From Demequinaceae bacterium (GTDB taxonomy: Bacteria > Actinomycetota > Actinomycetes > Actinomycetales > Demequinaceae): DNA of 32,000 nt. The position numbers were made by a program, and so were the translations under genes. The stretch covers positions 1,770,001-1,802,000 of the forward strand of contig OZ252279.1 of assembly GCA_965250005.1 (NCBI GenBank), read 5' to 3'. The notes beneath the pieces are model-generated. The model saw nothing but the letters and a program-made list of their open reading frames with translations, was not told the origin of the DNA and did no database searches. Of the stretch, positions 2,373-20,166 are shown piece by piece. The stretch's first letter is position 1, and every line of letters starts with the position of its first letter.

Positions 2373-2639
2373 TCACTTGCTCTGTCGCGTCCGGTTCTTG
2401 GCCGCTTCGAACGAGGCTCGCAATAGCGCCCGCCGGGCCTTATGTGCCCCGAGCGAGAGCTCAGATGAGCGCGCCTCGAAGCGCCGCCGAATCTCAACCT
2501 CCTGGGCGGCAATCTCTCGCTCCAGTCGCTCCCGTTCGACGCTCCGGCGCTTCCGGTACCAATCCTCAAACCAGACTGCGCTGATGATCAGGACGAGCCA
2601 GAGAACGAGAACGACGAGCGAAGCAAGATCCGAATCCAT
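2373..2639 (-). CDS. Small membrane-anchored coiled-coil protein
   Basis: N-terminal TM helix LASLVVLVLWLVLIISAVWF followed by a charged helical region (RERLEREIAAQEVEIRRRFE). ATG 2639 is preceded by GAGG at 8 nt. It overlaps or abuts the stop of the upstream gene (2642). Confidence 0.5.
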   Translation of the reverse strand: MDSDLASLVVLVLWLVLIISAVWFEDWYRKRRSVERERLEREIAAQEVEIRRRFEARSSELSLGAHKARRALLRASFEAAKNRTRQSK

Positions 2640-3106: not shown

Positions 3107-3451
3107 ATGAACGCGAAGGACGACGCGGCACCACAGCAGGAGAGCAAGGGCGCCAGGCGATACCCCGAGCACCTCATGTTCTTCGGTGGTAGCCATGTGC
3201 CCGTCGATCCCGAATTCGCTCGACGACGCGAAGAGTTCCTGCTCGACTTCGCGTACAGCACTGCAAGGGCCTATTGGGCTGACCTGCAGAGTTTCTACGA
3301 GTGGTGCGCCGCGGACTCGTTGGACTGGAGTTCGGTCGGCATTCTCGAACTTGATGGCTGGAGCGATTGCCTGAACTCGGATGGATATAGCGCGGGGGCA
3401 GTACGGCGTCGAGTTTCTGTCGCGAGGCGTTTCCTGCGTGTGCTTACATGA
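3107..3451 (+). pseudogene. Tyrosine recombinase remnant: N-terminal SAM-like/core-binding domain only
   Basis: EEFLLDFAYSTARAYWADLQSFYEWCAADSLDWSSVGILELDGWSDCLNSDGYSAGAVRRRVSVARRFLRVL matches the phage-integrase N-terminal SAM-like pattern. The ORF stops after 114 aa, and no catalytic R..HxxR..Y domain follows in any frame. Confidence 0.55.
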
Positions 3452-3557
3452 CGCCCTCGCCCGTCTGGCTGGGGCCTTTAGATTCAGCGCGCGCTGTTGC
3501 CGATTGGCACGTAGCCTCGGACCTGAACCGAGTTTCAGCGATTGTGAGAGGGCTTTC

Positions 3558-4754: not shown

Positions 4755-4759
4755 GAGAG

Positions 4760-5215
4760 ATGGAGATCGTCACTATGGAGCCTGATTGGCCACTCATATA
4801 TCCGGCGCAGTCAAAGATGCATTTCTTTTGTCGTGACGCTGTTTGCCAGTTCGTATTGGAGCGTCGAGCCGTTCCGTTGCACCCATTCCGAATGTTCGAC
4901 TACTTCCTAGGAGACCGCGTTGACCGAGACATCGTGCGAAATGCGAACAACTCTGTGGTTTCTCGCGTTGATGAGATATGGGTATTTGGACAGGAAATCG
5001 CGGATGGAGTACTCGCGGAGATCGATCTAGCAAACGCCTCGGGCAAGCCGGTAAAGTTTTTCTCGATTGCAACCCGGGCTCGCGAGATACGGGAAATCGA
5101 GAAAGACGAACTCAGATTCGAGGCGGAGCTTCGGGCGAAGGCGGGTGAGGACGTCTCTGGACTCCACGACGTCGTTCGTGGCGCGCGCCGGCTCTCCACA
5201 GTGCTGGCGCCGTAA
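4760..5215 (+). CDS. Flavodoxin-like protein resembling nucleoside 2-deoxyribosyltransferase-like / TIR-like (DUF4406/DUF1863-type) domains
   Basis: It starts 5 nt after the previous stop, behind AGGAGAG (alternative ATG at 4775). Pattern LIYPAQS...VVSRVDEIWVFGQEIADGVLAEIDLANASGKPVKFFSI. Assignment is by pattern only. Confidence 0.65.
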   Translation: MEIVTMEPDWPLIYPAQSKMHFFCRDAVCQFVLERRAVPLHPFRMFDYFLGDRVDRDIVRNANNSVVSRVDEIWVFGQEIADGVLAEIDLANASGKPVKFFSIATRAREIREIEKDELRFEAELRAKAGEDVSGLHDVVRGARRLSTVLAP

Positions 5216-5221
5216 GCCCCC

Positions 5222-7063
5222 GTGGAGCACATCGGAGGTCCGATCTACTGTCAGTTCCTCGATCGCGAAATGGCTGAGTCAGTCTCGTTTCCGCAGGCAA
5301 CTGCCACGACACTGCTGTTACTCCGGGACGCAATCATGGCGAGTGAGGGCGGCGCATACTGCAGTCTTTCAGCACTTGGAGAAAACCTGGTGCTCCAGAG
5401 ACTCCCCGGGGAGATCCTCGATGGTGTGCTGAGGTCTGGGCAGTTGGAAACGGTCAGCGACGTGCCAAGCGGCGAAGAGTTCTTGTGGACGAGGAGACAG
5501 CTCTACCGCGACGACAAGGAACGGTATCCGGCCTACTTCGAGCAGGCGCCGCGAGAGCTGGCCGACGAACTGTGGGCACCATCCTTCGTGAAGGCGTCGA
5601 GCTCAACCGAGGCGCTCGACCGCTCGCTGCGCCAGAGCGGCTCGTTCACGTCTCTCGGCGCCGAGGCCGGAGTTTTTGCCCCGCAGGACTACGTCGAACG
5701 TGCGGAAGAAATCCTGGATGACCGCGACGGACGTGCCATCACCTACGCTCTATTTCGAGACATGTTTGGGGCCTCGTCGCTTGATGGCCCCGTCGGCCCG
5801 ATGGTAGTCAGACGTGCGATTTCGGCCGCCTATGGACGTCACCTAGTCGAAGTACGCGCGGGGAACGTTCTCACCGGAATCCCGCGCCTGCAGATCTACG
5901 ATCGTCACCTCGCGTTCGAGTCGAGCGGTATAGGCATTCCGCGCAGGCTCGTTGAGCTTCTGTTGGCACCGCTTGTGCGGTTGAATGCGCGTCTGAAGCA
6001 TGGTGACGTTTCTGCATGGTCAGATTTGGTGTCCTTCAGAGAAGGCCCAAGTGGAGCGGAATTCGCGTATTGCGTGGCATCAGTGGTTCGTCACGTCGTG
6101 TCCGAGCCAGACCGTTGGGGCGAAGCATCGGTCGAGATGCGGGCCCTTCGGCTTGGTCGCGAACTGCTCAAATCCTTCAGAAACGGAGACAACCTCCAAG
6201 ACCACGTACTGCTGTTGGCAGATGCGGTTCGGTCTAGCGATGGCCGGGGTCCAAGGCGAGCTTCAACGTCGCGCAGCAGCAAAGTGTTGATCTGCTACGT
6301 CAACGACAATGAGTATGAGGGCATTCTTGACGGTCTCTCGATCCCTCGCGATGCACTTCCCGAGGTAGATCTCAATGGTCGCGTGTCCATCCAACCGGTC
6401 GGGCGCCATGCAGGTGCCGATCTCTTCATGGTTCAGAGCGAGGCGGGCTCGGTAGGCGCGTCTGCGGCTCAGTTGGTGACGGTAGATGCCATCGATGCCG
6501 TAAAGCCCGACTTCGTCGTGGCGGTCGGAATTGCTTTCGGCCTGAAATACAAGATCGCCCCAGGCACCGTCCTGGTTTCGACCATGGCTCGCTCGTACGA
6601 GCGCGTTAGGATGGGGTCGCGCGCTGACGGCTCGCTCGAGCTTCGAGAGAGAGATCAGCCGCAGCCAGTCGACGCGGTGCTCCTCAATCAAGTGAGGCTC
6701 GTCGCGAAGCGAAACCAGATTCCCGTCGCATTCGGCGAGATGCTCAGCGGCGAGAAGCTGGTCGACCATCCGGAGTTTCGCGCGTCTCTGATCGAGCGCT
6801 TCCCAGATGCGATTGGCGGTGAGATGGAAGCCACCGGGATTGCGGGGGCGGCGGCACGGCGCCGAGTGCCGTGGCTGATGTTCAAGGGCTTGAGCGACTA
6901 TGGAGACGGAAAAAAGAAGTCGAGTGAGCGATCCGGTGTCGTGCCTCTAGTCTCGCAACGTGAGGCCGCCGCAAACGGTGCTCGATTGCTGCTTTCACAC
7001 CTGCAAACTCGGAGTCGATCGGCGCAAGAGCCACAGGCGAGCATAGAGAGGATCTCGGAGTGA
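5222..7063 (+). CDS. Fusion protein: ~340-aa unknown N-terminal domain plus C-terminal PNP_UDP-type phosphorylase/nucleosidase domain
   Basis: The C-terminal part has KVLICYVNDNEYEGILDGL, AVGIAFGL, GGEMEATGIAGAAARRRVPWLMFKGLSDYGDGKKK (E534-M-E536). This matches the nucleoside phosphorylase / MTA-nucleosidase superfamily clade seen in conflict systems. GTG 5222 start (alternative ATG about 5270). Confidence 0.85.
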   Translation: MEHIGGPIYCQFLDREMAESVSFPQATATTLLLLRDAIMASEGGAYCSLSALGENLVLQRLPGEILDGVLRSGQLETVSDVPSGEEFLWTRRQLYRDDKERYPAYFEQAPRELADELWAPSFVKASSSTEALDRSLRQSGSFTSLGAEAGVFAPQDYVERAEEILDDRDGRAITYALFRDMFGASSLDGPVGPMVVRRAISAAYGRHLVEVRAGNVLTGIPRLQIYDRHLAFESSGIGIPRRLVELLLAPLVRLNARLKHGDVSAWSDLVSFREGPSGAEFAYCVASVVRHVVSEPDRWGEASVEMRALRLGRELLKSFRNGDNLQDHVLLLADAVRSSDGRGPRRASTSRSSKVLICYVNDNEYEGILDGLSIPRDALPEVDLNGRVSIQPVGRHAGADLFMVQSEAGSVGASAAQLVTVDAIDAVKPDFVVAVGIAFGLKYKIAPGTVLVSTMARSYERVRMGSRADGSLELRERDQPQPVDAVLLNQVRLVAKRNQIPVAFGEMLSGEKLVDHPEFRASLIERFPDAIGGEMEATGIAGAAARRRVPWLMFKGLSDYGDGKKKSSERSGVVPLVSQREAAANGARLLLSHLQTRSRSAQEPQASIERISE

Positions 7064-7614
7064 TCGTCGTATTTGCTGGCAACCGGCCGGACGAGTCCGG
7101 TATTGAGGAGCGGCTCATCCGGTTTCCGGCGTCTGCGGAAACTGCTGTCGCGACGACAATCCATAGAGTGCTGCGCAAGATCCGGCCCGCAGAAGTCGTC
7201 GGTGGCGCGTCGAGCGGAGCGGACACACTCTTCCTTGAGGCGGCCACTCGGTTGGGGATCCCTCGAAGGGTTGTGTTGCCCTTCGCAGCCGACGAATACC
7301 TGAAGGCGGCGGTCAAGCCCTCAGGGGCGTTGTGGGTCGAGCGCGCGATGCGGATGCTTGCGTCGCGCGACACGACTGTGACTGTGCACGACGATGGTAC
7401 GCGCGACCGAAGCGCATTCTTAAAGGGGAACTTGGCGCTGATTTCGAAGGCGGTCGAGCGAGCTGAGTCTCAGTCCGTCGAACCGATCGCTGTTGTGGTT
7501 CGGCATCTCAATGGAGCGAAGCGTTCGGTCTCTGATGAGTTCGTCGACGAGGCCGTCGCTCGCGGGCTTCGAGTTATTTGCGTCGATCCGATGGTGTGCC
7601 TGCATACTGGGTAG
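7060..7614 (+). CDS. SLOG-superfamily (YpsA/DUF2493/DprA-like) Rossmannoid protein
   Basis: GTGA start/stop overlap with the upstream gene. IVVFAGNRPD then VVGGASSGADTLFLEAATRLGIPRRVVLPF (G48 onward) then IAVVVRHLNG...ARGLRVICV. This is the GGxxGxD signature of SLOG-type ligand-binding domains. Confidence 0.75.
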   Translation: MIVVFAGNRPDESGIEERLIRFPASAETAVATTIHRVLRKIRPAEVVGGASSGADTLFLEAATRLGIPRRVVLPFAADEYLKAAVKPSGALWVERAMRMLASRDTTVTVHDDGTRDRSAFLKGNLALISKAVERAESQSVEPIAVVVRHLNGAKRSVSDEFVDEAVARGLRVICVDPMVCLHTG

Positions 7615-10601: not shown

Positions 10602-11144
10602 ATGACTTCGGCGAGCCCCGACTTGGCAGCGCTCTACGTGAAGCATGGTGACATGCTTCACCGGGTTGCTGCCGCTACCTTGCGTGGTAGTGGGCGTGTG
10701 GAAGACTCCAGAGATGTCGTTCACGATGCTTTTGAGGAAGTACTCAAGGGCAACGTGCCCGACGAGGTTCGGGATTGGAAGGCGTTCTTGATCACGGTCG
10801 TCAAAAGGCGAGCGCTCGACCGTGTGAAATCTGCGGCGGTGCGAAAGGCGGGACCGAGTCTTGATGCGGACACACTAGTGCCGGTAGCCAGTGACGATCT
10901 TGCTGAAGCGGTGGCTGCCGAGTTAGATGCGGAGCGACGTGCGCAACAGGTTCGTGAGGCACTGGCTGTGTTGGACGCCCGTCAACGGAAGGTCGTCGAG
11001 GCGTTCGTCTTCGAAGAACGCAAACAGGCCGATATCGCGGCTGAACTCGGTGTGAATCGATCCAGAGTGAGTCAACTATTTGGTGAGGCAAAGATGCTAA
11101 TAGACGAAGAGTTGGCGCGGAAGAAGGCGATTGGACATGGATAG
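10602..11144 (+). CDS. Sigma-70 family (ECF-like) RNA polymerase sigma factor
   Basis: Region 2-like LYVKHGDMLHRVAAATLRGSGRVEDSRDVVHDAFEEV...FLITVVKRRALD. Region 4 HTH LDARQRKVVEAFVFEERKQADIAAELGVNRSRVSQLF. Confidence 0.85.
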   Translation: MTSASPDLAALYVKHGDMLHRVAAATLRGSGRVEDSRDVVHDAFEEVLKGNVPDEVRDWKAFLITVVKRRALDRVKSAAVRKAGPSLDADTLVPVASDDLAEAVAAELDAERRAQQVREALAVLDARQRKVVEAFVFEERKQADIAAELGVNRSRVSQLFGEAKMLIDEELARKKAIGHG

Positions 11145-11796
11145 AGTCGAGTTTGACGATCTGGTCTTCGAGGTCGCGCGTGACCCGGGTTCGTTTGAGC
11201 GATTGTCCGGTTCCGGCGAACTTGCCGCAGCGCAGAAGGAAGCGCTGGCCGAGGCGCGCGAGCTTTCGCTTGCGCTCCGCCAGGCTGCGTATGGCGCCCC
11301 GCCGCTTTCGGAAGACCCCACTGCGGCTTTGCTCGGGCTCGTGCCGGATGCGCACTGCAAATTGGATGGAAAGGCGTTGCACCGTGCGCGCATGCAAGCA
11401 GAGTTGTCAGTATCAGAGTTGGCGCTTCGACTAGGAGCGCGCGAATGGCAAGTTGACAAGCGGGACGTTGCAAGGTGGGAGAGCCGTACGGCGGACGACG
11501 TTTCGCCGGCCCTTGTTGCAGCAGTAGCCGAAACGATCGGCGCGTCGGTCGACGACTTGATTTTGGATCCTGCGGCGGCGGCTCCTGACCCATTCGTTGA
11601 CGCACTGCGGCAGAATCCCGTCTTTGCGCAAGCCGTGGAGCGTTGGGCGGCCTTGCGCAACGTGTCGAAGGCTGTCGCGGCTGCAATGCTCGAGAGCAAG
11701 GCGCTTGTCACGGTGCACCGTGGCGAGGCGCCCGATGTCGAAAAAGCGGCGAAGTCTCTTGAAGCTTTGGTCAATGCCATCGAGGATGAGCAGTAG
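11137..11796 (+). CDS. XRE-type helix-turn-helix protein
   Basis: ATGGATAG overlap with the sigma gene stop. HTH LDGKALHRARMQAELSVSELALRLGAREWQVDKRDVARWESR. The long antisense ORFs here (11072..11686, 11097..11942) are shadows. Confidence 0.75.
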   Translation: MDRVEFDDLVFEVARDPGSFERLSGSGELAAAQKEALAEARELSLALRQAAYGAPPLSEDPTAALLGLVPDAHCKLDGKALHRARMQAELSVSELALRLGAREWQVDKRDVARWESRTADDVSPALVAAVAETIGASVDDLILDPAAAAPDPFVDALRQNPVFAQAVERWAALRNVSKAVAAAMLESKALVTVHRGEAPDVEKAAKSLEALVNAIEDEQ

Positions 11797-11808
11797 GAGA
11801 CAAGCGCC

Positions 11809-12825
11809 TTGGACTTGGATGCGCGAGCGGAGGCTGTCGTCGCGCGACTAGGCGACGACGCGGTCAACCGATTTGGGGCAGACCCAAGCGCGGCGCTCAT
11901 TGCCGACTTCGGGCTCATCGTCCGTTCGGTCGACCACCTCACTGACTCGCGCGGCGCTGGCGGCGAGTGCGACGGGCTTTCTTACCTCGAAGACGGTGTA
12001 ATCCTCTACGCACCGACCCCGAATAGCAAGCGCGAGAACTTCACCCTCGCACATGAATTCGGGCACTTCCTCGTCGAAAAGGACATTGCGCTGTTTGATT
12101 GGATTGCCGATCAAGTTGCGGCAGGCATGATCCTTGAACAGGTCTGCAATCGCATTGCACAAAGACTTCTCCTCGACGATGCGAGGGTCAAGTCAGTCGT
12201 TGGAACGGGCCAATTGAGAGCTATCCACGTTCTCGAACTCTTTGAAGCAACCCGCGCCAGCCGTCCAGTCTGCGCAATCGCGCTTGCAGGTCGGCTTCGA
12301 GGACTCGGGGCAGTCGCAATTCTCGAGCGGGCCGATGGTTCAGTAACTCACTCCACTGTCCAGCCCGATGTCGAGCAAGGCTGGCCTGAGGTCTTCCCAT
12401 GGCGCGGACAGAGCGTGTCCGGTGACCATCCGCTCACAAAGTTAAATGAAGGCGGCTCGCTGACGCAACGCCTTTCCTGGCGTTCACCTTGGGGAACGTC
12501 GGCTGACTTCTACGTCGATGCGATCGCCGACGCGCGCCGCGTATATGCAGTGTTCAGCGAGATCGACCTCTGGAAGGTCGACAAGTTCCACGGGTCGAAG
12601 AAACGCGATTATGACCAGCGCCTCCACCTCTCGGGAACGTGCTGCGGACAAGCGTTCTCGGTACGGGGGTACCCGTGCGACACATGCAAGCAACCGTATT
12701 GTCCACGCTGCGGCGACTGCCGCTGTGGTCGTGATGCGAAACGAAGCCTTACGTGCAGGGGTTGCCAGTACGTCTTCCTGTCCCATTTGCTGATCGACGG
12801 CCGATGCGAAGAGTGCCGAGGTTAG
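11809..12825 (+). CDS. ImmA/IrrE-family (M78, DUF955) zinc metallopeptidase with a Cys-rich C-terminal tail
   Basis: HEXXH in NFTLAHEFGHFLVEKD. TTG start with AGGAGA 8 nt upstream. The last ~70 aa hold about 12 Cys: TCCGQAFSVRGYPCDTCKQPYCPRCGDCRCGRD...CRGCQYVF...GRCEECRG. Confidence 0.85.
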   Translation: MDLDARAEAVVARLGDDAVNRFGADPSAALIADFGLIVRSVDHLTDSRGAGGECDGLSYLEDGVILYAPTPNSKRENFTLAHEFGHFLVEKDIALFDWIADQVAAGMILEQVCNRIAQRLLLDDARVKSVVGTGQLRAIHVLELFEATRASRPVCAIALAGRLRGLGAVAILERADGSVTHSTVQPDVEQGWPEVFPWRGQSVSGDHPLTKLNEGGSLTQRLSWRSPWGTSADFYVDAIADARRVYAVFSEIDLWKVDKFHGSKKRDYDQRLHLSGTCCGQAFSVRGYPCDTCKQPYCPRCGDCRCGRDAKRSLTCRGCQYVFLSHLLIDGRCEECRG

Positions 12826-12915
12826 TTCCTAACACTTGACGCCGCTCCCTCGACTCCAATATGAGCGCGCCTGCAAACCGCGGCACAACCAGCGTTCGGG
12901 ACGGGGGTGATTGCA

Positions 12916-13071
12916 GTGGCGAAAAACACCGGACGCGGACACCGTGCAGGTGCCGTGCGTGCGCGCAGTGAGTTCAAGCGCGGCAGCACGTGGTTCAAGC
13001 GGGATTCCAATACGGGTCGGATTCTCAACGGCAGCCCGAAAAAGCACAAGGGTGTACGTGACGAAAAGTAG
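12916..13071 (+). CDS. Small basic protein (51 aa), below the ORF-track length cut-off
   Basis: GTG start 9 nt after GGGGG: VAKNTGRGHRAGAVRARSEFKRGSTWFKRDSNTGRILNGSPKKHKGVRDEK. It resembles small AKNTG...KRD..TGRF...KGVR proteins I recall from actinobacterial plasmids and phages. Putative promoter TTGACG (12836-12841), 18 nt spacer, TATGAG (12860-12865). Confidence 0.45.
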   Translation: MAKNTGRGHRAGAVRARSEFKRGSTWFKRDSNTGRILNGSPKKHKGVRDEK

Positions 13072-13101: not shown

Positions 13102-13142
13102 CTTGACTATGCTTTTACATAGACATGACCTGTGAGATAATA
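13102..13142 (+). promoter_or_regulatory. Promoter/operator copy 1 (drives the Ubl operon)
   Basis: CTTGACTATGCTTTTACATAGACATGACCTGTGAGATAAT: -35 TTTACA (13114-13119), 16-nt spacer, -10 GATAAT (13136-13141). Near-identical to 16244-16284. Confidence 0.65.
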
Positions 13143-13182
13143 TGGATATTGAGACAAGTTGTCCCAAAAAAGGAGTAGTTCA

Positions 13183-13431
13183 ATGGCAGACAAGAAACAC
13201 AACAAGACGTTCAAGGTTTTCGTGAATGGCGTCGAGAAGACAGTCGATCACGAGTTTCTGACCTATGACGAGGTGGTGCAGCTTTTCATCGCGGAGCCTG
13301 TTCCCAACACCATTTACGCGGTGAGTTTCGAGCACGCTAAGGAGCCAAAAGAAGGAGATTTGGTGGCCGGTCAGCGAGTGAAAATCAAGCAGAACACGAA
13401 ATTCGATGTCGATGACACTGGTCGCTCATAG
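13183..13431 (+). CDS. Ubiquitin-like beta-grasp protein of the multiubiquitin type (82 aa)
   Basis: AGGAG 8 nt upstream of ATG 13183. KTFKVFVNGVEKTVDHEFLTYDEVVQLFIAEPVPNTIYAVSFEH...DLVAGQRVKIKQNTKFDVDDTGRS matches my memory of the Multi_ubiq domain. It sits immediately upstream of an E1-like gene. Confidence 0.75.
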   Translation: MADKKHNKTFKVFVNGVEKTVDHEFLTYDEVVQLFIAEPVPNTIYAVSFEHAKEPKEGDLVAGQRVKIKQNTKFDVDDTGRS

Positions 13432-14578
13432 TCCGGATCTCGCGAAACTCGTTGACGAAGGCTATGACGTAGAGGTTCGCGATGGCAATCTCCTAGTGCA
13501 CCACGTTCCTTATGTGACAGGTGCTGGCCAGGTCGCCTATTGCATTCTTGTGTCAGAGTTGTCGACCGACGGCCACAAGACAGTTGCGCCAGGGAGTCAC
13601 CAGGCCTGGGTCGTTGGGGATATCCCGCACGATCACCAAGGGAACAAGGTCACGATCGTTCTGGACCAGAAACATGACTACGGCGGGGGTCTCGTAGCTT
13701 CATGCAGCCTCTCAGGAAAACCTGGCAACAAGATGCCTCGCAACTACCACCACAAGATCAGTCACTATGTCGACCGTCTCGGTCGATATGCGAGAGCGAT
13801 CGACCGTTCCGCTACCCACAAGAACTACCCAGCCCGTGAAACATCGGAAGAGGAGTCAGTTTTTCGCTATCATGATGCGGCGACGAGCCGAGCTGGTCTA
13901 AGTGCTGTTTCCGGCAAACTCAAGGTGGCAAAGGTGGCTATTGTTGGCCTCGGTGGCACTGGTTCGTACATCCTTGATCTTATCGCAAAGACACCAATTG
14001 AAGAGATCCATTTGTTTGATGATGATGTGCTCTACGCGCACAACGCCTTCCGGGCACCGGGAGCTGTGTCTCTTGATGAACTCAAAATGTCGCCTCTCAA
14101 GGTTGACTATTTTGCTGGTAAGTACGGCGAGCTCAGGCGCAACATCACTGCTTACCCAGTGCGAGTCAGCGACCATAATGTTGACGACCTTCGCGATATG
14201 GACTTCGTCTTTCTGGCTATGGATGCAGGCCCAACCAAGCGGTTGATTGTTGAAAAACTTCAAAGTTGGGCGACTCCGTTTGTCGATTGCGGGATGGGCG
14301 TTGAACGCCTCGGCAACTCGCTTCGAGGGACGCTCCGAGTGACGGCTGGGGCCGAAGGAAAATACGACCACTTGCCGCGTCGAATCTCGTACACTGACGT
14401 CGATGCAGATGAGTACGACTGGAACATTCAGACGGCGGACCTCAACATGATGAACGCTGCTATGGCTGTTCTCAAGTGGAAGAAACTCCTTGGCTACTAC
14501 GTCGACGGCAAAGGCGAACTCAACAGCACCTACGTTGTTGCGAGGAATCAATTGAACAGCGGCGAACTATCCGTATGA
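13406..14578 (+). CDS. E2-like N-terminal domain fused to a ThiF/E1-type adenylyltransferase
   Basis: E1 part: KVAIVGLGGTGSYILDLIAKTPIEEIHLFDDDVLYAHNAFRAPG (nt ~13934 onward). N-terminal part: LLVHHVPYVTGAGQVAYCILVSEL (Cys46 at 13541-13543), reminiscent of the UBC HPN...G.IC.L motif. The start overlaps the Ubl gene by 20-26 nt. Confidence 0.9.
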   Translation: MSMTLVAHSPDLAKLVDEGYDVEVRDGNLLVHHVPYVTGAGQVAYCILVSELSTDGHKTVAPGSHQAWVVGDIPHDHQGNKVTIVLDQKHDYGGGLVASCSLSGKPGNKMPRNYHHKISHYVDRLGRYARAIDRSATHKNYPARETSEEESVFRYHDAATSRAGLSAVSGKLKVAKVAIVGLGGTGSYILDLIAKTPIEEIHLFDDDVLYAHNAFRAPGAVSLDELKMSPLKVDYFAGKYGELRRNITAYPVRVSDHNVDDLRDMDFVFLAMDAGPTKRLIVEKLQSWATPFVDCGMGVERLGNSLRGTLRVTAGAEGKYDHLPRRISYTDVDADEYDWNIQTADLNMMNAAMAVLKWKKLLGYYVDGKGELNSTYVVARNQLNSGELSV

Positions 14579-14994
14579 AGCAAACTTCGCTTGTCCCAGA
14601 GTTTGTAAACACTATTCCCGAGGAACTTGAGGAAGGCCTACTCTACGTATCGGAGCGGTTTAGTACCGCGTCTCATCTATGCGCATGCGGTTGCGGCAGC
14701 AAGGTCGTAACCCCACTTAAGCCAACGAAGTGGCAGTTGACAAGTGATGATGGACTTGTGTCACTGTGGCCGTCCATCGGCCGGTGGCAACTCCCGTGCA
14801 AGTCTCACTACTGGATTAGAGAGAACAAAGTCGAATGGTCCTGGTCCTTCACTGAAGATGAGATGCGGGCCGTGCTAGAGCGAGATGCGCGTGACCTTCA
14901 TAACTACTACGAGTCACGACGTACGCCGCGTTGGATTCCGAGTCTTCTTGCACCGTTGTGGCGACGATGGCTTGGTCGCGCAAGAGAACGCTAG
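14575..14994 (+). CDS. DUF6527-like Cys/His-rich small protein (139 aa)
   Basis: ATGA start/stop overlap with the E1 gene. LLYVSERFSTASHLCACGCGSKVVTPL...WPSIGRWQLPCKSHYWI. The ORF-track start (14476) lies inside the E1 gene. Confidence 0.8.
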   Translation: MKQTSLVPEFVNTIPEELEEGLLYVSERFSTASHLCACGCGSKVVTPLKPTKWQLTSDDGLVSLWPSIGRWQLPCKSHYWIRENKVEWSWSFTEDEMRAVLERDARDLHNYYESRRTPRWIPSLLAPLWRRWLGRARER

Positions 14995-15053: not shown

Positions 15054-15521
15054 TCACGTATTGGATCGTTGAGGCGCTTGGGCGCTCGCTTTGACGGAGC
15101 CCCGGATCTTGACTCCGCTCTCGCGCAGTCGCGATGCTATCGTGTCGCCCGTTGTACCAAATCTCTGGCCGACAATGGCGAGTGACAGCCCCGACTCATA
15201 CAGTCGAATCGCCTCGGGCAGTTGCTCGGGCAGTAGGCCTGTGCGGCGTAGCCTCACGCCAGTGCGCTTCAAGGTTTCGCTGACCGTTGTCCGATGGCAG
15301 TTGAACTCCTTTGCGAGTTCGTAGGTCGTCGCTCCCTCGCGGTAGAGCTCAGCCAACTCCTCCACCTGATCTGGCTTGAGCCGAGTTTGTCGTTGACCGA
15401 CTCGAACACCTCGTTCAGAGTCAAGTGCAGACTTAGGGCCTGAAGCAATCTCAACAACCTGATTGGCAAGCGTTCGTAAGGCGGATCCTGTGTTCGCAAG
15501 CGAACGCCTCAGGACCACCAA
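15054..15521 (-). CDS. Double helix-turn-helix protein (resolvase/sigma-region-4-like HTHs), paralog 1
   Basis: LKPDQVEELAELYREGATTYELAKEFNCHRTTVSETLKRTGV and LPEQLPEAIRLYESGLSLAIVGQRFGTTGDTIASRLRESGV. The TTG 15521 / GTG 15518 start is inferred from alignment with paralog 2. No SD, so possibly leaderless. Confidence 0.6.
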   Translation of the reverse strand: MVVLRRSLANTGSALRTLANQVVEIASGPKSALDSERGVRVGQRQTRLKPDQVEELAELYREGATTYELAKEFNCHRTTVSETLKRTGVRLRRTGLLPEQLPEAIRLYESGLSLAIVGQRFGTTGDTIASRLRESGVKIRGSVKASAQAPQRSNT

Positions 15522-15533
15522 GAACTGACAAAG

Positions 15534-15551
15534 ACTACTAAAAATAGTAGT
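15534..15551. repeat. Perfect palindrome ACTACTA-AAAA-TAGTAGT just upstream of HTH paralog 1
   Basis: Read directly. It lies 13 nt upstream of the proposed start on the minus strand. Candidate operator or -10 region. Confidence 0.5.
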
Positions 15552-15832
15552 AAAACCAGGGGTCGCACTGTACCGGTGCGGCTCCTTTTCGTATCTCACT
15601 GCATTTGATGGTCATCGCGGAATGTGGCTTGCGACCGGGGTAACAGGGGTTCGTACTACTTCAGGGTCCTTGCACCGGTACAGGTTTTCGACCCGTTTTC
15701 GTCACGTCGCCGACCCCTGTTCGGATGTACCGGTGGTGTTGTAGACATGGCAGCGATCATGCAGCTCATGCTTGCGTTTTGCGCCCAATGCTTCACACTC
15801 GAGCGCAGTAACTCAGCAGGAGAATGACCGCC

Positions 15833-16243
15833 ATGCCGCGGGTGACCAACGACCAGCATTTCAAACGACATCAACAACTCAAGCAGATCTATCTGCAGCA
15901 TCCGAAACTCTTCACGTGTCTGCAGCCGAACGATCAGCTGGACCTCTACGTCTACTACCGACCCCACGAGACGACTTCAATCGAAGAACTCGAAGAGCAC
16001 TGGGCTCACGCAGTGGCTATCGATTACTCACTACCGAATCGTGCCGGAAAGGCCTATCTCCAGATTCTCGAACACGCCGTCGGTCACCATTCCGAGCAGA
16101 ATCGCCAGCGCTGCCAGTACCAGCGAACAAACACCGGACGCATTCGTGTTGTCGGCGCCATGCGCCCGGAGCCAGATATTGACAAACTAGTCATGGCAAT
16201 CAAAATGCTGGCTGAGCATCAGGCCAAGGAGCAGGCAGACTAA
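15833..16243 (+). CDS. Hypothetical protein (136 aa)
   Basis: AGGAGA 9 nt upstream of ATG 15833 (ATG 15824 abuts the SD). The C-terminus RIRVVGAMRPEPDIDKLVMAIKMLAEHQ shares a motif with the 1064-1267 product. Confidence 0.55.
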   Translation: MPRVTNDQHFKRHQQLKQIYLQHPKLFTCLQPNDQLDLYVYYRPHETTSIEELEEHWAHAVAIDYSLPNRAGKAYLQILEHAVGHHSEQNRQRCQYQRTNTGRIRVVGAMRPEPDIDKLVMAIKMLAEHQAKEQAD

Positions 16244-16284
16244 ACTTGATTGTTCTTTTACGTAGACATGACCTGTGAGATAAT
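16244..16284 (+). promoter_or_regulatory. Promoter/operator copy 2 (drives the PD-(D/E)xK nuclease gene)
   Basis: CTTGATTGTTCTTTTACGTAGACATGACCTGTGAGATAAT. It differs from copy 1 at 4 of ~40 positions, and the last 22 bp are identical. Confidence 0.65.
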
Positions 16285-16308
16285 GGGATCACAAGGAGGA
16301 GGCGAAGT

Positions 16309-17772
16309 TTGGAAGATCTCTATTTCTCAGATCAGTTCGGTCTGGACCCGGCAGTGCTCGACTCGTATGGAGCATTCGACATCAGCCTTGTTTCGGATCT
16401 CCCTCTGTTCATTGACCCATTCTTGCTATTTCACAGCCCCAAGCCTGAGTACCACGAGTTGCACGCAGGCATCATCACGTATCTCAGATTCCTGCGTGAT
16501 AAGGCAGGCGATGACCTTGCTCCCGGTTTGATCGACCAGTGGTATCGGTTCGGGGAGGTCGAGCAGAACTGGCTTGGCTTCACGTTCCTAGGAAACAAGG
16601 GGCACGGCTTGGGTCGCGGTTTCGCGACGGCTCTCAATGAATCTCTCCATCGGGTGCTGACGAATTTCGGCTCTGAAGAGATCACCAAGGGCAGTCACCT
16701 TGAGAAGCTGGCGCTGATCAAGCCCGGCGTCGGGCGTGACAGCATTAGTGACTTCGCGACGAACCTGATCAAGGGATACCTGCTTGATTACACCCAAGAG
16801 TTCGCGAGCAGACATCTCGATGATGACAAGTGCGAAGAGTTTGCCGTCGAGCGAGCAGTGTTTAACTACACGACTCAAGCCTGGGAAACGCGTACCTATC
16901 GCTTGCCTTCAGCAAGAGACGACTATGTTTTGTTGACTCCGGTGGACATGTTGACGCGCGATGACACGTGGATTAGTCACAGTGACATGATCGGCAATTT
17001 CCACAAGATTCCTCCCGCGGTTTCTGACGAACAGTTGCGGGCAAAGGTGAACAACTACTTCGCATCGCGGCTCGGGGACAAACCGACCAAGAAGGATTCC
17101 GAACGAGCTGCCCAGCGGACAATTCTCGAGTTTCCCGAGTTGATCGACATTTACATTCGCAGCCGTGAGGATGACGGCGATCGGGCTGTCGGATTCAGCA
17201 GCGCTCGTCGCGATGAGACCAAACACGTGCTCGTCGGGATGGTCAAGAAGTTGGTCAGCGATCTGTCGAGCCGTACCGATCTCCTATCAGGTGCACTGAC
17301 GAGCTACGACGAAGCATTTCGACTTGTTCATGGCTTTAAGCAATACATCGAGAACCAAGATGGGTATCGTCTGATCAACCGAGATGGAAACGAGAAGCCA
17401 TTTTCAAACGAGTCAGATGTCCAATTGTTCTTCGGACTCACGTTCTTGGCAACAAGATTTGACTTGAATCGCGAGCCGAACAACGGTCGCGGTCCGGTCG
17501 ACTTCAAGGTCAGTGAAGGAGCATTCGACAAGTCACTGATTGAGTTCAAATTGGCAAGCAACACGCAACTTAAGCGCAATCTCCAGAAGCAGGTTCAAAT
17601 CTACGAGGCAGCGAACCAGACTCGTTCGTCGGTCAAGGTGATCATCTTCTACACCCAGCAGGAACAGGAAAAGGTCCAACGGATTCTCTCTGATCTGAAA
17701 CTTACAGGCGAAGAGTCCATCGTCGTCATTGACGCTCGCGCAGACAACAAGCCAAGCGCATCAAAGGCGTGA
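16309..17772 (+). CDS. Large protein with a C-terminal PD-(D/E)xK nuclease motif
   Basis: TTG start behind AGGAGGAGG. The C-terminal part has NESDVQLFF (E368/D370), GRGPVDFKV (D398) and SLIEFKL (E412-x-K414). The N-terminal ~350 aa (FDISLVSDLPLFIDPFLLFHSP...) is unassigned. Confidence 0.8.
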   Translation: MEDLYFSDQFGLDPAVLDSYGAFDISLVSDLPLFIDPFLLFHSPKPEYHELHAGIITYLRFLRDKAGDDLAPGLIDQWYRFGEVEQNWLGFTFLGNKGHGLGRGFATALNESLHRVLTNFGSEEITKGSHLEKLALIKPGVGRDSISDFATNLIKGYLLDYTQEFASRHLDDDKCEEFAVERAVFNYTTQAWETRTYRLPSARDDYVLLTPVDMLTRDDTWISHSDMIGNFHKIPPAVSDEQLRAKVNNYFASRLGDKPTKKDSERAAQRTILEFPELIDIYIRSREDDGDRAVGFSSARRDETKHVLVGMVKKLVSDLSSRTDLLSGALTSYDEAFRLVHGFKQYIENQDGYRLINRDGNEKPFSNESDVQLFFGLTFLATRFDLNREPNNGRGPVDFKVSEGAFDKSLIEFKLASNTQLKRNLQKQVQIYEAANQTRSSVKVIIFYTQQEQEKVQRILSDLKLTGEESIVVIDARADNKPSASKA

Positions 17773-18078: not shown

Positions 18079-18111
18079 GACGGGTTCTTTAGAACCCTGA
18101 CCAAGTCGATG

Positions 18112-18149
18112 AACCCGGTTCTCCCCATCAGGGGGCAACCGGGTTTTTT
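18112..18149 (+). terminator. Strong hairpin plus T-run immediately left of the IS
   Basis: AACCCGGTT-ctCCCCatcaGGGGgc-AACCGGGTT followed by TTTTTT (18144-18149). Confidence 0.5.
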
Positions 18150-18195
18150 GATTTGGCCTGGGTTTTGTTCCGACTTTTCAGTAAGGATGGAACCC

Positions 18196-18507
18196 ATGAC
18201 TAGATACACACCGCAGATGCGTGAGCGGGCGTTGAGAATGCTTGCTGAGGCGAGGCCGGATCACCCGAGTTTGATGACTGCGATCCGTCACGTGGCAGGC
18301 TTGCTTGGGATGAGCCCGGAGACGCTTCGCGTGTGGCAACGCCGCTACGAGGTCGATGCCGGGCAACGCCCGGGGGCGACTAGCGACATAGTTGAGGACA
18401 ACCGGCGTTTGAAGCGCGAGAACGCGGAGTTGCGCAAAGCGAATGAGGTCCTTCGGGCTGCGAGCGTGTTTTTTGCGAAGGAGCTCGACCAGCCACGGAC
18501 GAGATGA
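18196..18507 (+). CDS. IS3 transposase OrfA (HTH)
   Basis: MTRYTPQMRERALRMLAEARPD...SPETLRVWQRRYEVD plus leucine zipper-like RRLKRENAELRKANEVLRAA. AAGGA upstream of ATG 18196. A T6G run at 18469-18475 lies near the orfA end. Confidence 0.85.
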   Translation: MTRYTPQMRERALRMLAEARPDHPSLMTAIRHVAGLLGMSPETLRVWQRRYEVDAGQRPGATSDIVEDNRRLKRENAELRKANEVLRAASVFFAKELDQPRTR

Positions 18508-19430
18508 CCCGCTTCATTGACGAGCACAAGGGTCGTTTCGGGGTTGAGCTCATCTGCCGGGTGTTACGCGTGGCGGTTCGTGGATTTGTCACCTCGCGCG
18601 GTTATCGCGCCGCTAAGACGCGTCCACCGTCCGTGCGTGCCCTGCGTGATGGTCTGCTTGTGCCCGAGGTGGTCCGGTTGCATGCAGAGAACTACGGCGT
18701 GTACGGGAGGCGGAAAATGCATGCGCTGCTGAAGCGGCAAGGCTGGCAGGTTGGGCGGGACCAGACCGAGCGACTCATGCGCCTGGCAGGTGTTCGGGGT
18801 GTGAAACGCTCGAAGAAAGTGTTTACGACCAAGAGTGATCCTGCTGCCGCCAAGCCGCAGGATCTTGTGCAACGCCGGTTCACTGCACCAGCACCGCGCC
18901 GTTTGTGGGTCGCGGACATCACCTACGTCGCGACCTGGTCCGGTTTCGCTTACGTCGCGTTCGTCACCGACGTCTACTCACGCAGGATCGTCGGATGGAA
19001 CGTCGCATCGACCCTGCAGGCTGACATCCTGCCTTTGCGGACGCTCGACATGGCCGCCTGGGACGCGGCAGGCGACCTCGCTGGCCTCGTCCATCATGCC
19101 GACCACGGCTCAAACTATTTGGCTACGGTCTACACCGACCGCGTCATCGAGCTCGGTGCGAAACCTTCCACCGGCTTGGTCGGCGACTCATATGACAATG
19201 CCCTCGCCGAGGCCATCAACGGCCTCTACAAAACAGAACTCATCCGCCAGCAAGGGCCCTGGCGCACCGTCGAACAAGTCGAGTTCGCGACCCTCGAATA
19301 CGTGTGGTGGTGGAACAACAAACGACTCCACGGCGAACTCGACATGCACACCCCCGTCGAGATCGAACAGGCGTACTACGCTGGCCAAGAATCAACCCAA
19401 CCGGCATCCGCCGGACAGGGAAACACCTAG
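18504..19430 (+). CDS. IS3 transposase OrfB (DDE/rve integrase core), normally made as an OrfAB -1 frameshift fusion
   Basis: RLWVADITYV...HADHGSNY...DNALAEAINGLYKTE...RLHGELDMHTPVEIE is a DDE pattern. The frame is -1 relative to orfA. Confidence 0.85.
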   Translation: MTRFIDEHKGRFGVELICRVLRVAVRGFVTSRGYRAAKTRPPSVRALRDGLLVPEVVRLHAENYGVYGRRKMHALLKRQGWQVGRDQTERLMRLAGVRGVKRSKKVFTTKSDPAAAKPQDLVQRRFTAPAPRRLWVADITYVATWSGFAYVAFVTDVYSRRIVGWNVASTLQADILPLRTLDMAAWDAAGDLAGLVHHADHGSNYLATVYTDRVIELGAKPSTGLVGDSYDNALAEAINGLYKTELIRQQGPWRTVEQVEFATLEYVWWWNNKRLHGELDMHTPVEIEQAYYAGQESTQPASAGQGNT

Positions 19431-19449
19431 GAACTAAACCCAGGCCAAA

Positions 19450-20166
19450 TCAGATTGCTCGAGCAAGTTCGACGCGGCTGTCCCAGGTGTTTCGGTCAAG
19501 GAGTTCGCGTCGCATCGAGGACCAGAATGATTCGATGAGTGCGTTGTCCACAGACGACGCGACCCTTCCCATCGATCCGAGGAACCCAGCTTGGCGTAGT
19601 CGGTGCCCGAAAATCCAACTCGTGTATTGCGCTCCTCGATCAGCATGAACAATGGTCCCGGGCTTGGGGCGGCGTTGCCAGCGAGCCATTTCCAGGGTGT
19701 CGGTGACGAGCTCTGCGGTGGGTCGGTCAGCAATAGACCAGCCCACGACACGGCGGGAGAAAGCATCAACAACGGCGCAGCAGTAAACCCACCCGTCCCG
19801 CGCGCGATGCTGCGTGATGTCGGTAAACCACACCCGATCAGGCTGATCGGCTCGGAACTGGCGTTTGACAAGGTCGTCATGGGTGGCTGCTGCTGGGGCC
19901 CATCCACGCCGTTTACGCCCGTGTGACACGCCTCGTAGGCCCGCTTCACGCAACAGTCGGGCCACCCGTTTACGGCTGCAGGCCACACCGTGCTCGATTG
20001 AGAGATCGTCGTGGATGCGCTTCGCACCATACGTGCCCCGCGAGTCACGATGGATCCGGCAAATCACCTCCGTGAGTGCCCGATCCTCGACCGCACGCCG
20101 TGACGGGGCCCTGCCTAACCACTCGTAGTAGCCGGCACGAGAAACGCCAAGTTTTTGGCACGCCAC
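19450..20166 (-). pseudogene. Truncated IS3 OrfB (DDE transposase lacking its C-terminal ~40-50 aa)
   Basis: VWFTDITQH...VHADRGAQYTS...DNALIESFWSSMRRELL...ELARAI then stop. The frame is open upstream to the CCCAAAA slippery site at complement 20217-20223. Confidence 0.7.

What the first reader, a model, noticed from the sequence alone, without database searches (positions are those of the whole stretch)
13102..14994. Ubiquitin-like operon: multiubiquitin-type Ubl, E2-like/E1 fusion and DUF6527-like zinc protein, with no deubiquitinase
Seen in the sequence: a promoter (13102-13142) and an AGGAG SD are followed by three overlapping ORFs (a 20-26-nt overlap, then an ATGA overlap at 14575-14578). 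ORF1 (82 aa) has a beta-grasp multiubiquitin-like sequence. ORF2 (390 aa) has the ThiF/E1 adenylation fold (VAIVGLGGTGSYILD...FDDDVLYAHNAFRAPG) behind a ~170-aa N-terminal domain. ORF3 (139 aa) is Cys/His-rich (HLCACGCGS...LPCKSHYW), which I recall as DUF6527. There is no JAB or other peptidase, no separate E2 and no CD-NTase nearby. Established knowledge: bacterial E1/E2/Ubl operons act in anti-phage immunity (Cap2/Cap3 in CBASS, and the Bil system). Multiubiquitin/E1 operons were predicted computationally. To my knowledge the Ubl-E2/E1-DUF6527 trio has no experimentally defined function or target. Inference: this is a protein-conjugation module carried as mobile-element cargo and is probably defensive. 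The DUF6527-like protein could be an E3-like adaptor, a target or a processing factor.
Basis: partly seen in the sequence, partly recalled or inferred. Interest (0 to 1): 0.85.

Follow-up and report, generated by a model that had tools for sequence, protein, structure and literature searches.

The report
Type II Bub ubiquitin-like conjugation operon

Summary
The three overlapping ORFs, the Shine-Dalgarno site and a promoter-like site are real. They form a Type II Bub operon (formerly "6E.2/DUF6527"; Ye et al., bioRxiv 10.1101/2024.11.21.623953). The genes are bubA (13183-13431, 82-aa single beta-grasp Ubl), bubBD (13412-14578, E2-E1 fusion) and bubE (14575-14994, DUF6527).

BubBD is 35% and BubE 42% identical to the biochemically characterised E. 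coli ZDHYS365 proteins. Every published catalytic residue is present:
- BubBD: H63, S101 and K103 (E2); R214 and Y335 (E1).
- BubE: C36/C38/C40/C75 (zinc site); S67 and H78 (protease dyad).

The BubA model (pLDDT 85) best matches the E. coli BubA crystal structure.

"No deubiquitinase" is wrong, because DUF6527/BubE is a Ser-His protease that removes BubA conjugates. "No experimentally defined function" is out of date for the biochemistry, but the biological role and targets are still unknown.

The operon is low-GC cargo in a defence- and IS-rich island. It sits directly after a separate conserved actinobacterial mobile-element module (sigma, HTH, ImmA/IrrE peptidase, 51-aa protein). That module occurs elsewhere without Bub.

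Verdict: already known, low interest.

The parts
13114..13141 (+). Promoter-like site: -35 TTTACA, 16-nt spacer, TG-extended -10 GATAAT
   Evidence: Consensus scan, 10/12 match. It lies 43 nt after the stop of the conserved 51-aa gene, where GC falls. Function not tested.
13171..13175 (+). Shine-Dalgarno AGGAG, 7 nt before the bubA ATG
   Evidence: Read directly from the sequence.
13183..13431 (+). bubA: 82-aa ubiquitin-like protein with one beta-grasp domain; C-terminus ...DVDDTGRS
   Evidence: Pfam Multi_ubiq 1.6e-6. AlphaFold2 pLDDT 85.1. Best Foldseek match is the E. coli ZDHYS365 BubA crystal structure 9cd2, TM 0.78, rmsd 1.6 A, E 2e-6. The C-terminal DVDDTG[RK]S is invariant in 28 relatives.
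13412..14578 (+). bubBD: E2-E1 fusion, 388 aa (an alternative ATG at 13406 gives 390 aa). Key codons: H63 13598-13600, S101 13712-13714, K103, R214 14051-14053, Y335 14414-14416
   Evidence: DUF6791 1e-40 plus ThiF 5e-13. NCBIfam NF004805 436 bits against a cut-off of 352. 35% identity over 381 residues to E. coli BubBD, E 1e-76. Residue conservation in 144 representatives. Best structural match of the E1 part is Citrobacter BubCD.
13433..13876 (+). E2-like (BubB) domain of BubBD (Pfam DUF6791)
   Evidence: Pfam hit. It aligns end to end with the E2 domain of E. coli BubBD, 161.5 bits. S101 aligns with the catalytic S106.
13916..14575 (+). E1 adenylation (BubD) domain: GxGGxG at residues 179-184, D203, R214, D292, crossover-loop Y335
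   Evidence: ThiF hit, PDB sequence match to Citrobacter BubCD, Foldseek, conservation.
14575..14994 (+). bubE: DUF6527 Ser-His protease with a C4 zinc site (C36, C38, C40, C75; S67 at 14773-14775; H78 at 14806-14808) and a basic-hydrophobic C-terminal tail
   Evidence: Pfam DUF6527 2.3e-24. 42% identity to E. coli BubE, E 2e-34. The six residues are invariant in 14 sequences apart from one OCR gap. The precomputed annotation now names PF20137 'BubE'.
10602..11144 (+). Context, not part of Bub: ECF-type sigma factor, first gene of a conserved actinobacterial mobile-element module
   Evidence: Pfam and NCBIfam sigma-70 hits. 41-43% identity to the first gene of the same module in L012, L015 and L016.
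11131..11796 (+). Context: 221-aa protein with a weak HTH, second gene of the module
   Evidence: HTH_31 at 0.0037, below the cut-off. 44-48% identity to module genes elsewhere.
11809..12825 (+). Context: ImmA/IrrE (M78) metallopeptidase with an HEFGH motif, an IrrE-like second domain and a Cys-rich C-terminal tail
   Evidence: Peptidase_M78, PADLOC capP 7.5e-10, IrrE structures 8slm and 3dte over residues 36-250. More than 380 homologues, mostly named from Actinomycetota.
12916..13071 (+). Context: conserved 51-aa basic protein, fourth module gene and the last one before the Bub cargo
   Evidence: 75-82% identity to the 51-aa ORFs of L012, L015 and L016.
16309..17772 (+). Neighbour: 487-aa protein matching the PADLOC defence candidate PDC-M36A
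   Evidence: PADLOC 1.6e-18; no Pfam hit.
18109..19430 (+). Neighbour: IS3-family transposase (orfA and orfB); a second rve fragment lies at 19450-20166 on the minus strand
   Evidence: HTH_Tnp_1, HTH_21 and rve hits.

Best explanation
[quoted passage not shown] The proposed mechanism follows, with shown and inferred steps marked.

1. BubA is an 82-aa single beta-grasp Ubl that ends in a free ...T-G-R-S carboxylate.
2. The ThiF-type E1 domain of dimeric BubBD binds BubA and adenylates it with ATP, using R214 and the GxGGxG/Asp nucleotide site.
3. Y335 on the flexible crossover loop attacks the adenylate and forms a BubA~Tyr oxyester.
4. The loop delivers BubA to S101 in the E2 domain, probably of the opposite protomer. 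H63 and K103 assist, and a BubA~Ser oxyester forms.
5. BubA is then passed to lysines of unknown targets.
6. BubE, a small beta-sandwich protein held by a C4 zinc site, uses S67 and H78 to cut BubA off its targets. Its basic-hydrophobic C-terminal tail may place it at the membrane.

Shown here: gene content, folds, homology, and the presence of every catalytic residue.

Inferred from the E. coli and Citrobacter experiments: the chemistry.

Unknown: the targets and the physiological role. The working hypothesis is antiphage or stress defence, supported only by genomic context.
For: - Architecture Ubl / E2-E1 / DUF6527 without a JAB peptidase matches the published definition of Type II Bub.
- BubBD is 35% identical to E. 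coli ZDHYS365 BubBD (E 1e-76) and BubE is 42% identical to E. coli BubE (E 2e-34).
- S101, K103, R214 and Y335 align with E. coli S106, K108, R219 and Y342. S106, R219 and Y342 were shown by mutation to be needed for conjugation; mutating K108 had no effect.
- Conservation in 144 representatives at 50% clustering: H63 144/144, S101 142/144, K103 127/144, R214 144/144, Y335 144/144.
- No cysteine of the window protein is conserved across the family.
- The BubE zinc cysteines and Ser/His dyad are invariant in 14 sequences.
- BubA folds as a beta-grasp and best matches E. coli BubA, PDB 9cd2.
- The E1 part best matches Citrobacter BubCD structures.
- All 11 related loci, from several bacterial phyla and one viral contig, have BubE after BubBD. 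The 10 with upstream sequence also have BubA.
- Close homologues sit beside a type I restriction-modification system and a SIR2 gene. In the window the operon lies beside a PDC-M36A candidate, an IS3 element and a purine-nucleoside-phosphorylase-type (PNP) effector gene.
Against: - No biochemical data exist for this locus.
- The BubBD model is only moderate (pLDDT 76.6), and the Arg-finger segment 210-218 scores below 50.
- The published E. coli sequences were read from an OCR'd PDF. At the Y342 position the OCR text shows V, so that equivalence rests on the alignment and on the 144/144 Tyr column.
- The authors could not demonstrate phage protection for any Bub operon.
Confidence: 0.93

Rival explanations
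1. One reading: a Ubl/E2-E1 conjugation module that has no deconjugating enzyme, in which the DUF6527 protein acts as an E3-like adaptor, a target or a processing factor.
For: No JAB/JAMM domain is present in the window. The authors themselves first considered a Ubl-transfer role for BubE, because its Ser/His pair is predicted to sit next to the BubA C-terminus.
Against: Citrobacter BubE cleaves a BubA-GFP fusion and erases BubA-target conjugates in cells, and S92A and H102A abolish both activities. The same residues are intact here as S67 and H78. A processing role is unlikely: Type II BubA proteins in eight lineages all stop at the same invariant Ser, and E. coli BubA reacts without BubE.
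Confidence: 0.04
2. A sulfur-carrier (ThiS/MoaD-type) activation system for thiamine, molybdopterin or thio-modification, in which ORF2 acts as a ThiF/MoeB adenylyltransferase.
For: ORF2 contains a ThiF-family domain. Its model also resembles ThiF and MoeB-like structures.
Against: NCBIfam ThiF and MoeB scores are 16-36 bits against cut-offs of 152-633. BubA ends in ...GRS, not Gly-Gly. No thi, moa or moe gene and no sulfurtransferase gene is nearby. The E1 is fused to an E2-type domain and followed by a protease.
Confidence: 0.01
3. A Cap2-like E2-E1 ligase of a Type II CBASS/Pycsar/6A-MBL system, or a Bil system, that uses cysteine thioesters.
For: Weak PADLOC 'E1-E2' matches (best 8.7e-9) and a weak NCBIfam 6A-MBL cap2_3 match, both covering only the adenylation motif region.
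Against: The cap2_3 score is 25 bits against a cut-off of 320. No CD-NTase, cyclase, effector partner, JAB peptidase or separate E2 is present. No family-wide cysteine exists, and Ser and Tyr occupy the catalytic positions. Bil needs a separate E2, a JAB peptidase and an IAD-AAD-CYS E1.
Confidence: 0.01
4. Regulation rival: the HTH and M78 peptidase pair directly upstream is a dedicated CapH+CapP repressor/protease switch for this Bub operon, as reported for 31% of Bub operons.
For: The M78 ORF matches the PADLOC capP model at 7.5e-10 and resembles IrrE across two domains. The pair is co-directional with bubA, and no terminator-like site was found between them. 168 of 544 Bub operons carry CapH+CapP.
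Against: The pair belongs to a sigma / HTH / M78 / 51-aa / ~89-aa module. That module recurs in 9 actinobacterial loci that do not carry Bub. It sits next to integrases, resolvases or a relaxase, and the genes downstream of it differ from locus to locus and in at least two loci lie on the opposite strand. The four closest Bub loci lack the pair. GC differs (0.60 against 0.53), and Bub has its own promoter-like site.
Confidence: 0.2

Closest known systems
Type II Bub operon of E. coli ZDHYS365 (BubA WP_053069300.1, BubBD WP_063617865.1, BubE WP_074146335.1; Ye et al., bioRxiv 10.1101/2024.11.21.623953)
   Same: Same three genes in the same order. BubBD is 35% and BubE 42% identical. The same Ser, Lys, His, Arg and Tyr residues and the same C4 plus Ser/His residues are present. 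The BubA C-terminus has the same T-x-[KR]-S form. BubE has a C-terminal hydrophobic tail. Both sit in mobile-element or defence-island settings.
   Different: BubA here has one beta-grasp domain (82 aa) instead of three (about 221 aa). Single-domain Ubls occur in 40% of Bub operons. The residue three positions before the catalytic Ser is Cys here, invariant in the close clade, and His in E. coli. The host is a high-GC, probably actinobacterial, genome.
Type I Bub operon of Citrobacter sp. RHBSTW-00271 (BubAB, BubCD, BubE; PDB 9ea4, 9ea8, 9eae, 9eav)
   Same: The E1 adenylation domain is the best sequence and structure match in the PDB. It uses the same oxyester logic with a crossover-loop Tyr and an E2 Ser, and has the same BubE protease family.
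   Different: Type I fuses the Ubl to the E2 and a JAB peptidase to the E1. Its Ubl ends in Gly after cleavage, and the E2 Ser is assisted by His and Asp. Here the E2 is fused to the E1, there is no JAB peptidase, the Ubl ends in Ser, and the assisting residues are Lys and His.
Bil (bacterial ISG15-like) antiphage systems
   Same: A bacterial Ubl with E1 and E2 activities in defence-island contexts, conjugating a Ubl to protein targets.
   Different: [quoted passage not shown] None of these is present here.
Type II CBASS Cap2/Cap3
   Same: An E2-E1 fusion ligase paired with a deconjugating peptidase that restrains it.
   Different: Cap2 uses cysteines and conjugates a CD-NTase rather than a Ubl, and Cap3 is a JAB metallopeptidase. 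No CD-NTase is present here, and profile scores are far below the cut-offs.
ImmR/ImmA of ICEBs1, IrrE/DdrO and CapH/CapP (comparison for the upstream module only)
   Same: An HTH protein is encoded next to an M78 metallopeptidase with an IrrE-like two-domain core. The module sits next to integrase and excisionase genes in related loci.
   Different: The module also carries an ECF-type sigma factor, a Cys-rich tail on the peptidase and a conserved 51-aa basic protein. Cleavage of the HTH protein has not been tested.

Membership tests
Type II Bub operon (6E.2 / DUF6527) | Gene complement and order: Ubl, then E2-E1 fusion, then DUF6527 protein, with no JAB peptidase | tested here: met
   ORFs and Pfam hits; definition in the paper. 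The same trio occurs in the related loci: 11 of 11 have BubE and 10 of 10 with upstream sequence have BubA.
Type II Bub operon (6E.2 / DUF6527) | BubA is a beta-grasp ubiquitin-like protein | tested here: met
   Multi_ubiq above the cut-off. AF2 pLDDT 85. Top Foldseek hit is E. coli BubA 9cd2, TM 0.78.
Type II Bub operon (6E.2 / DUF6527) | E1 adenylation domain with the nucleotide-binding motif and the catalytic Arg (E. coli R219) | tested here: met
   ThiF hit. GxGGxG at 179-184 and R214, which is 144/144 conserved. Foldseek to BubCD, MccB, UBA5 and ThiF.
Type II Bub operon (6E.2 / DUF6527) | Invariant Tyr on the crossover loop (E. coli Y342), the site of the E1 oxyester | tested here: met
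   Y335 is Tyr in 144/144 representatives. The alignment to E. coli is clouded by an OCR error at that residue.
Type II Bub operon (6E.2 / DUF6527) | E2 domain with an invariant Ser (E. coli S106) accompanied by Lys and His, and no catalytic Cys | tested here: met
   S101 142/144, K103 127/144, H63 144/144. Aligned to S106 and K108. No family-wide Cys.
Type II Bub operon (6E.2 / DUF6527) | The N-terminal domain adopts the E2/UBC fold | tested here: inconclusive
Type II Bub operon (6E.2 / DUF6527) | BubE carries a C4 zinc site and a Ser-His catalytic dyad | tested here: met
   C36/C38/C40/C75, S67 and H78 align with E. coli C34/C36/C38/C73, S65 and H76. They are invariant in 14 sequences.
Type II Bub operon (6E.2 / DUF6527) | ATP-dependent BubA conjugation through oxyester intermediates, and BubE-dependent deconjugation | not testable with these tools
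   Shown for the E. coli and Citrobacter proteins only.
Type II Bub operon (6E.2 / DUF6527) | Frequent but not defining: association with CapH+CapP or CapW regulators | tested here: inconclusive
   A capP-like M78 peptidase and an HTH protein lie upstream. They belong to a module that occurs without Bub.
Type I Bub operon | Ubl-E2 fusion (BubAB) and JAB-E1 fusion (BubCD) | tested here: not met
   The Ubl is a separate 82-aa protein, the E2 is fused to the E1, and there is no JAB domain.
Bil system | Separate E2, JAB peptidase, and an E1 with IAD-AAD-CYS domains and a catalytic Cys | tested here: not met
   No such genes or domains are present, and there is no conserved Cys.
Type II CBASS / 6A-MBL Cap2-Cap3 | CD-NTase (or MBL) partner, Cap2 with catalytic cysteines, Cap3 JAB peptidase | tested here: not met
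   cap2_3 scores 25 bits against a cut-off of 320. No CD-NTase or JAB peptidase is in the window.
ThiS/MoaD-ThiF/MoeB sulfur-carrier systems | Carrier ending in Gly-Gly, a stand-alone adenylyltransferase that reaches the family cut-offs, and a biosynthetic gene neighbourhood | tested here: not met
   BubA ends ...TGRS. ThiF and MoeB scores are far below the cut-offs. No thi, moa or moe genes are nearby.

The most novel reading that the evidence does not exclude
The sigma / HTH / ImmA-IrrE peptidase / 51-aa module could be a stress- or infection-sensing switch of a family of actinobacterial integrative elements, with its downstream edge serving as a cargo-insertion hotspot. In this window the Bub operon has replaced the module's usual fifth gene. 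Bub expression could therefore be coupled to element induction by read-through, on top of its own promoter. A second possibility is that the clade-invariant Cys98, three residues before the catalytic Ser101, adds thiol or redox chemistry to the otherwise cysteine-free Bub E2.
Probability: 0.12. Interest if true: 0.45.

Novelty: already known. Interest (0 to 1): 0.18.

Why it matters
The main value is better annotation. Public sources that name this protein family call the members "hypothetical protein" or "ThiF family", and this copy carries no name at all, so the DUF6527 gene is easily misread as non-enzymatic. The locus is a complete Type II Bub system that includes its own deconjugating protease.

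It is also a compact example, with an 82-aa single-domain Ubl, from a high-GC and probably actinobacterial genome. That could make it a convenient model for the questions still open for Bub: what gets tagged, and whether the system protects against phage.

One practical consequence follows from BubA ending ...TGR|S. Trypsin should leave a single Ser (+87.03 Da) on modified lysines, which gives a searchable mass-spectrometry signature.

Tried and rejected
- **Source contig.** An exact look-up of BubBD (P0001) found no record. The cluster look-up gave no organism or protein names. The host is therefore inferred only as a high-GC genome, probably Actinomycetota, from the named homologues.
- **Metagenome scan with the M78 peptidase.** It found nothing. 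The protein database search was used instead.
- **Cys98 as a catalytic cysteine.** Rejected as a family feature. The position is His, Tyr, Phe or Cys across the family, although it is invariant in the close clade.
- **BubE trimming BubA after Gly80.** Rejected. Gly is not conserved at that position in other lineages, all Type II BubAs end at the same invariant Ser, and E. coli BubA reacts without BubE.
- **Upstream HTH and M78 pair as a dedicated CapH/CapP regulator.** Downgraded after the same module was found in 9 loci without Bub.
- **Carriage by viruses.** A scan of viral contigs found only one relative, at 44% identity, so there is no evidence that the operon is mainly virus-borne.
- **Later papers on Bub function.** None was found in the library.
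Full report
**1. Observation**

- An 82-aa ORF runs 13183-13431, preceded by AGGAG at 13171-13175.
- A 388/390-aa ORF starts at 13412 or 13406 and ends at 14578, overlapping the first by 20 or 26 nt.
- A 139-aa ORF runs 14575-14994 and starts in an ATGA overlap.
- The 388-aa form is the one stored in public collections (P0001), and it matches the N-termini of homologues.
The 3-kb region holds 4 promoter-like sites against 1.3 +/- 1.3 in shuffles.
- Pfam gives Multi_ubiq for ORF1, DUF6791 plus ThiF for ORF2 and DUF6527 for ORF3, all above the curated cut-offs.

**2. Identity**

A full-text search for DUF6527 led to Ye, Gong, Chambers and Corbett (bioRxiv 10.1101/2024.11.21.623953). They rename the "6E/DUF6527" operons as Bub (bacterial ubiquitination-like). 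[quoted passage not shown] That is the gene content found here.

The paper's supplement gives the sequences of the characterised E. coli ZDHYS365 proteins.
- The window BubBD is 35% identical over 381 residues (E 1e-76).
- The window BubE is 42% identical (E 2e-34).
- NCBIfam recognises BubBD as equivalog NF004805 (436 bits against a cut-off of 352), but still names it "hypothetical protein".
- The precomputed Pfam labels of a related contig already call PF20137 "BubE".

**3. Tests of the defining residues**

I aligned the window BubBD with 144 full-length representatives, taken from a search of a library clustered at 50% identity. Numbering is for the 388-aa protein.

| Residue | Conservation | E. 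coli equivalent |
|---|---|---|
| H63 | 144/144 | not numbered in the paper |
| S101 | 142/144 (2 Cys) | S106 |
| K103 | 127/144 | K108 |
| R214 | 144/144 | R219 |
| Y335 | 144/144 | Y342 |

- In E. coli BubBD, the S106A, R219A and Y342F mutations abolish conjugation. Mutating K108 does not.
- The GxGGxG motif (179-184), D203 and D292 are also conserved.
- The OCR'd E. coli sequence shows V at the Y342 column. I treat this as an OCR error, because the column is Tyr in all 144 sequences.
- None of the three cysteines of the window protein is conserved family-wide. This fits the cysteine-free oxyester mechanism.
- Cys98, three residues before Ser101, is invariant only in the close clade of sequences at least 62% identical. 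Elsewhere the position is His, Tyr or Phe.
- In BubE, C36/C38/C40/C75, S67 and H78 align with E. coli C34/C36/C38/C73, S65 and H76. They are invariant in 14 sequences from diverse loci.

**4. Folds**

- BubA, modelled with 28 homologues, gave pLDDT 85.1 and a beta-beta-alpha-beta topology.
- Its best PDB match is the E. coli ZDHYS365 BubA crystal structure 9cd2 (TM 0.78, rmsd 1.6 A, E 2e-6). Citrobacter BubA and generic ubiquitin folds follow.
- The BubBD model is moderate (pLDDT 76.6). Its E1 part best matches Citrobacter BubCD, then MccB, PaaA, UBA5, ThiF and Cap2 (sequence-level match).
- The E2 fold of the N-terminal domain could not be checked independently. It rests on full-length homology to the E. 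coli E2 domain (161.5 bits) and on the secondary-structure order.

**5. Conservation of the trio**

Eleven related loci carry BubE directly after BubBD. The ten with upstream sequence also carry BubA. The source taxa are:
- Bifidobacterium, a Cryobacterium MAG and other Actinomycetes
- Alicyclobacillus
- Cyclobacteriaceae
- Geothrix
- Massilia
- one viral contig

More than 6,600 database proteins match BubBD at E <= 1e-5. This is a large, well-populated family.

**6. Mechanism**

By homology to the published experiments:
1. The BubBD E1 domain adenylates the BubA C-terminus.
2. BubA passes to Y335 as an oxyester.
3. BubA passes to S101 of the E2 domain as a second oxyester.
4. BubA is transferred to lysines of unknown targets.
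5. BubE hydrolyses the conjugates.

All chemical steps are inferred for this locus.

Type II BubA proteins from eight lineages end in T-x-[K/R/E]-S with an invariant terminal Ser, not Gly. Examples are TGRS in the window, TDKS in E. coli, TTKS in Alicyclobacillus and TGES in Geothrix and Massilia. E. coli BubA reacts with BubBD and ATP without BubE. The native Ser carboxylate is therefore most likely the reactive end, and no processing step is needed.

**7. Context**

- GC falls from about 0.60 to 0.52-0.54 between roughly 12.5 and 18 kb.
- Downstream lie a minus-strand HTH gene, a 139-aa ORF, a 487-aa match to the PADLOC defence candidate PDC-M36A (1.6e-18) and IS3 transposase genes.
- Core genes begin at about 21.8 kb: a PMT-family protein mannosyltransferase (PF02366), rsmI, metG, tatD, ksgA and ispE.
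- Upstream at 1.6-9.6 kb lie an MT-A70 methyltransferase, a 613-aa protein with a purine-nucleoside-phosphorylase-type (PNP) effector domain, and other unknown genes.
- Close BubBD homologues sit beside a type I restriction-modification system and a SIR2 gene.

The mobile-cargo and defence-island reading is supported by this context only.

**8. The genes directly upstream**

ORF 11809-12825 is an ImmA/IrrE (M78) peptidase. It has an HEFGH motif, matches the PADLOC capP model at 7.5e-10 and resembles IrrE across two domains. A weak-HTH protein and an ECF-type sigma factor precede it. Because 31% of Bub operons carry CapH+CapP, I tested whether this pair is a dedicated Bub regulator.

- Homologues of the peptidase are widespread in Actinomycetota.
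- In nine loci the peptidase lies in a fixed module: sigma, a roughly 220-aa protein, the M78 peptidase, a 51-aa protein and a roughly 89-aa protein.
- That module sits beside integrases, excisionase-like genes, resolvases or a relaxase. The genes downstream of it differ from locus to locus and in at least two loci lie on the opposite strand. None of the nine loci carries Bub.
- The window has the first four genes. The 51-aa gene at 12916-13071 is 75-82% identical to its counterparts. The Bub promoter and bubA then replace the fifth gene.
- The four closest Bub loci lack the module.

The module is therefore best read as mobile-element backbone. A regulatory link to Bub remains possible but is untested.

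**9. Rivals**

- A sulfur-carrier system is excluded by profile scores far below the cut-offs, the non-GG C-terminus and the gene neighbourhood.
- Cap2/CBASS and Bil are excluded by the missing partner genes and the missing cysteines.

**10. Verdict**

The system is an intact but ordinary Type II Bub operon. It has been described bioinformatically since the "6E" classification, was characterised biochemically and structurally in 2024-2025, and belongs to a family of thousands. The targets and the biological role of Bub systems remain unknown. This locus adds no new evidence on those questions, so interest is low.

Noticed in passing
window 10602-13071 (+); also L012-L020: A conserved actinobacterial module: ECF-type sigma, a roughly 220-aa weak-HTH protein, a 338-aa ImmA/IrrE peptidase with a Cys-rich tail, a 51-aa basic protein, and usually a roughly 89-aa protein. 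It recurs next to integrases, resolvases or a relaxase, and the genes after it differ from locus to locus. In the window the fifth gene is missing and the Bub operon follows. It may mark a cargo-insertion hotspot or an element induction switch.
   Followed up: partly
window 13417-13431 (BubA C-terminus); L001-L011: Type II BubA proteins from eight lineages end in T-x-[K/R/E]-S with an invariant terminal Ser rather than the Gly typical of Ubls. The main text of the Bub paper does not comment on this in the passages searched.
   Followed up: partly
window 13703-13705 (Cys98 of BubBD): A cysteine three residues before the catalytic Ser101 is invariant in the close clade of sequences at least 62% identical. 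The position is His, Tyr or Phe in most of the family. Its significance is unknown.
   Followed up: partly
window 15824-17772 (+): A 139-aa ORF with no family match is followed by a 487-aa ORF that matches the PADLOC phage-defence candidate PDC-M36A (1.6e-18) and has no Pfam domain. This is a possible second defence gene pair directly downstream of Bub.
   Followed up: no
window 3381-7614 (+): A co-directional cluster: an FAD/NAD-binding oxidoreductase-like protein (457 aa), a DUF7768 protein (151 aa), a 613-aa protein whose C-terminus is a purine-nucleoside-phosphorylase-type (PNP) domain matching a PADLOC CBASS-type 'PN-superfamily' effector model (6e-15), and a 184-aa ORF. It could be another defence system.
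   Followed up: no
window 1634-2569 (-): An MT-A70-family DNA methyltransferase (PADLOC MTase_II 6e-45) with no obvious cognate restriction enzyme identified.
   Followed up: no
window 18109-20166: An IS3-family element (orfA and orfB, + strand) abuts a second, truncated rve transposase on the minus strand. Together they separate the low-GC island from the core genes (PMT-family mannosyltransferase, rsmI, metG, tatD, ksgA, ispE), which start at about 21.8 kb.
   Followed up: no
window 15054-15599 (-); L001 12501-12800: The convergent HTH gene 60 nt after bubE has a 52%-identical homologue about 3 kb downstream of the Bub operon in the Bifidobacterium MAG locus L001. This hints at shared ancestry of a larger cargo block.
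   Followed up: no
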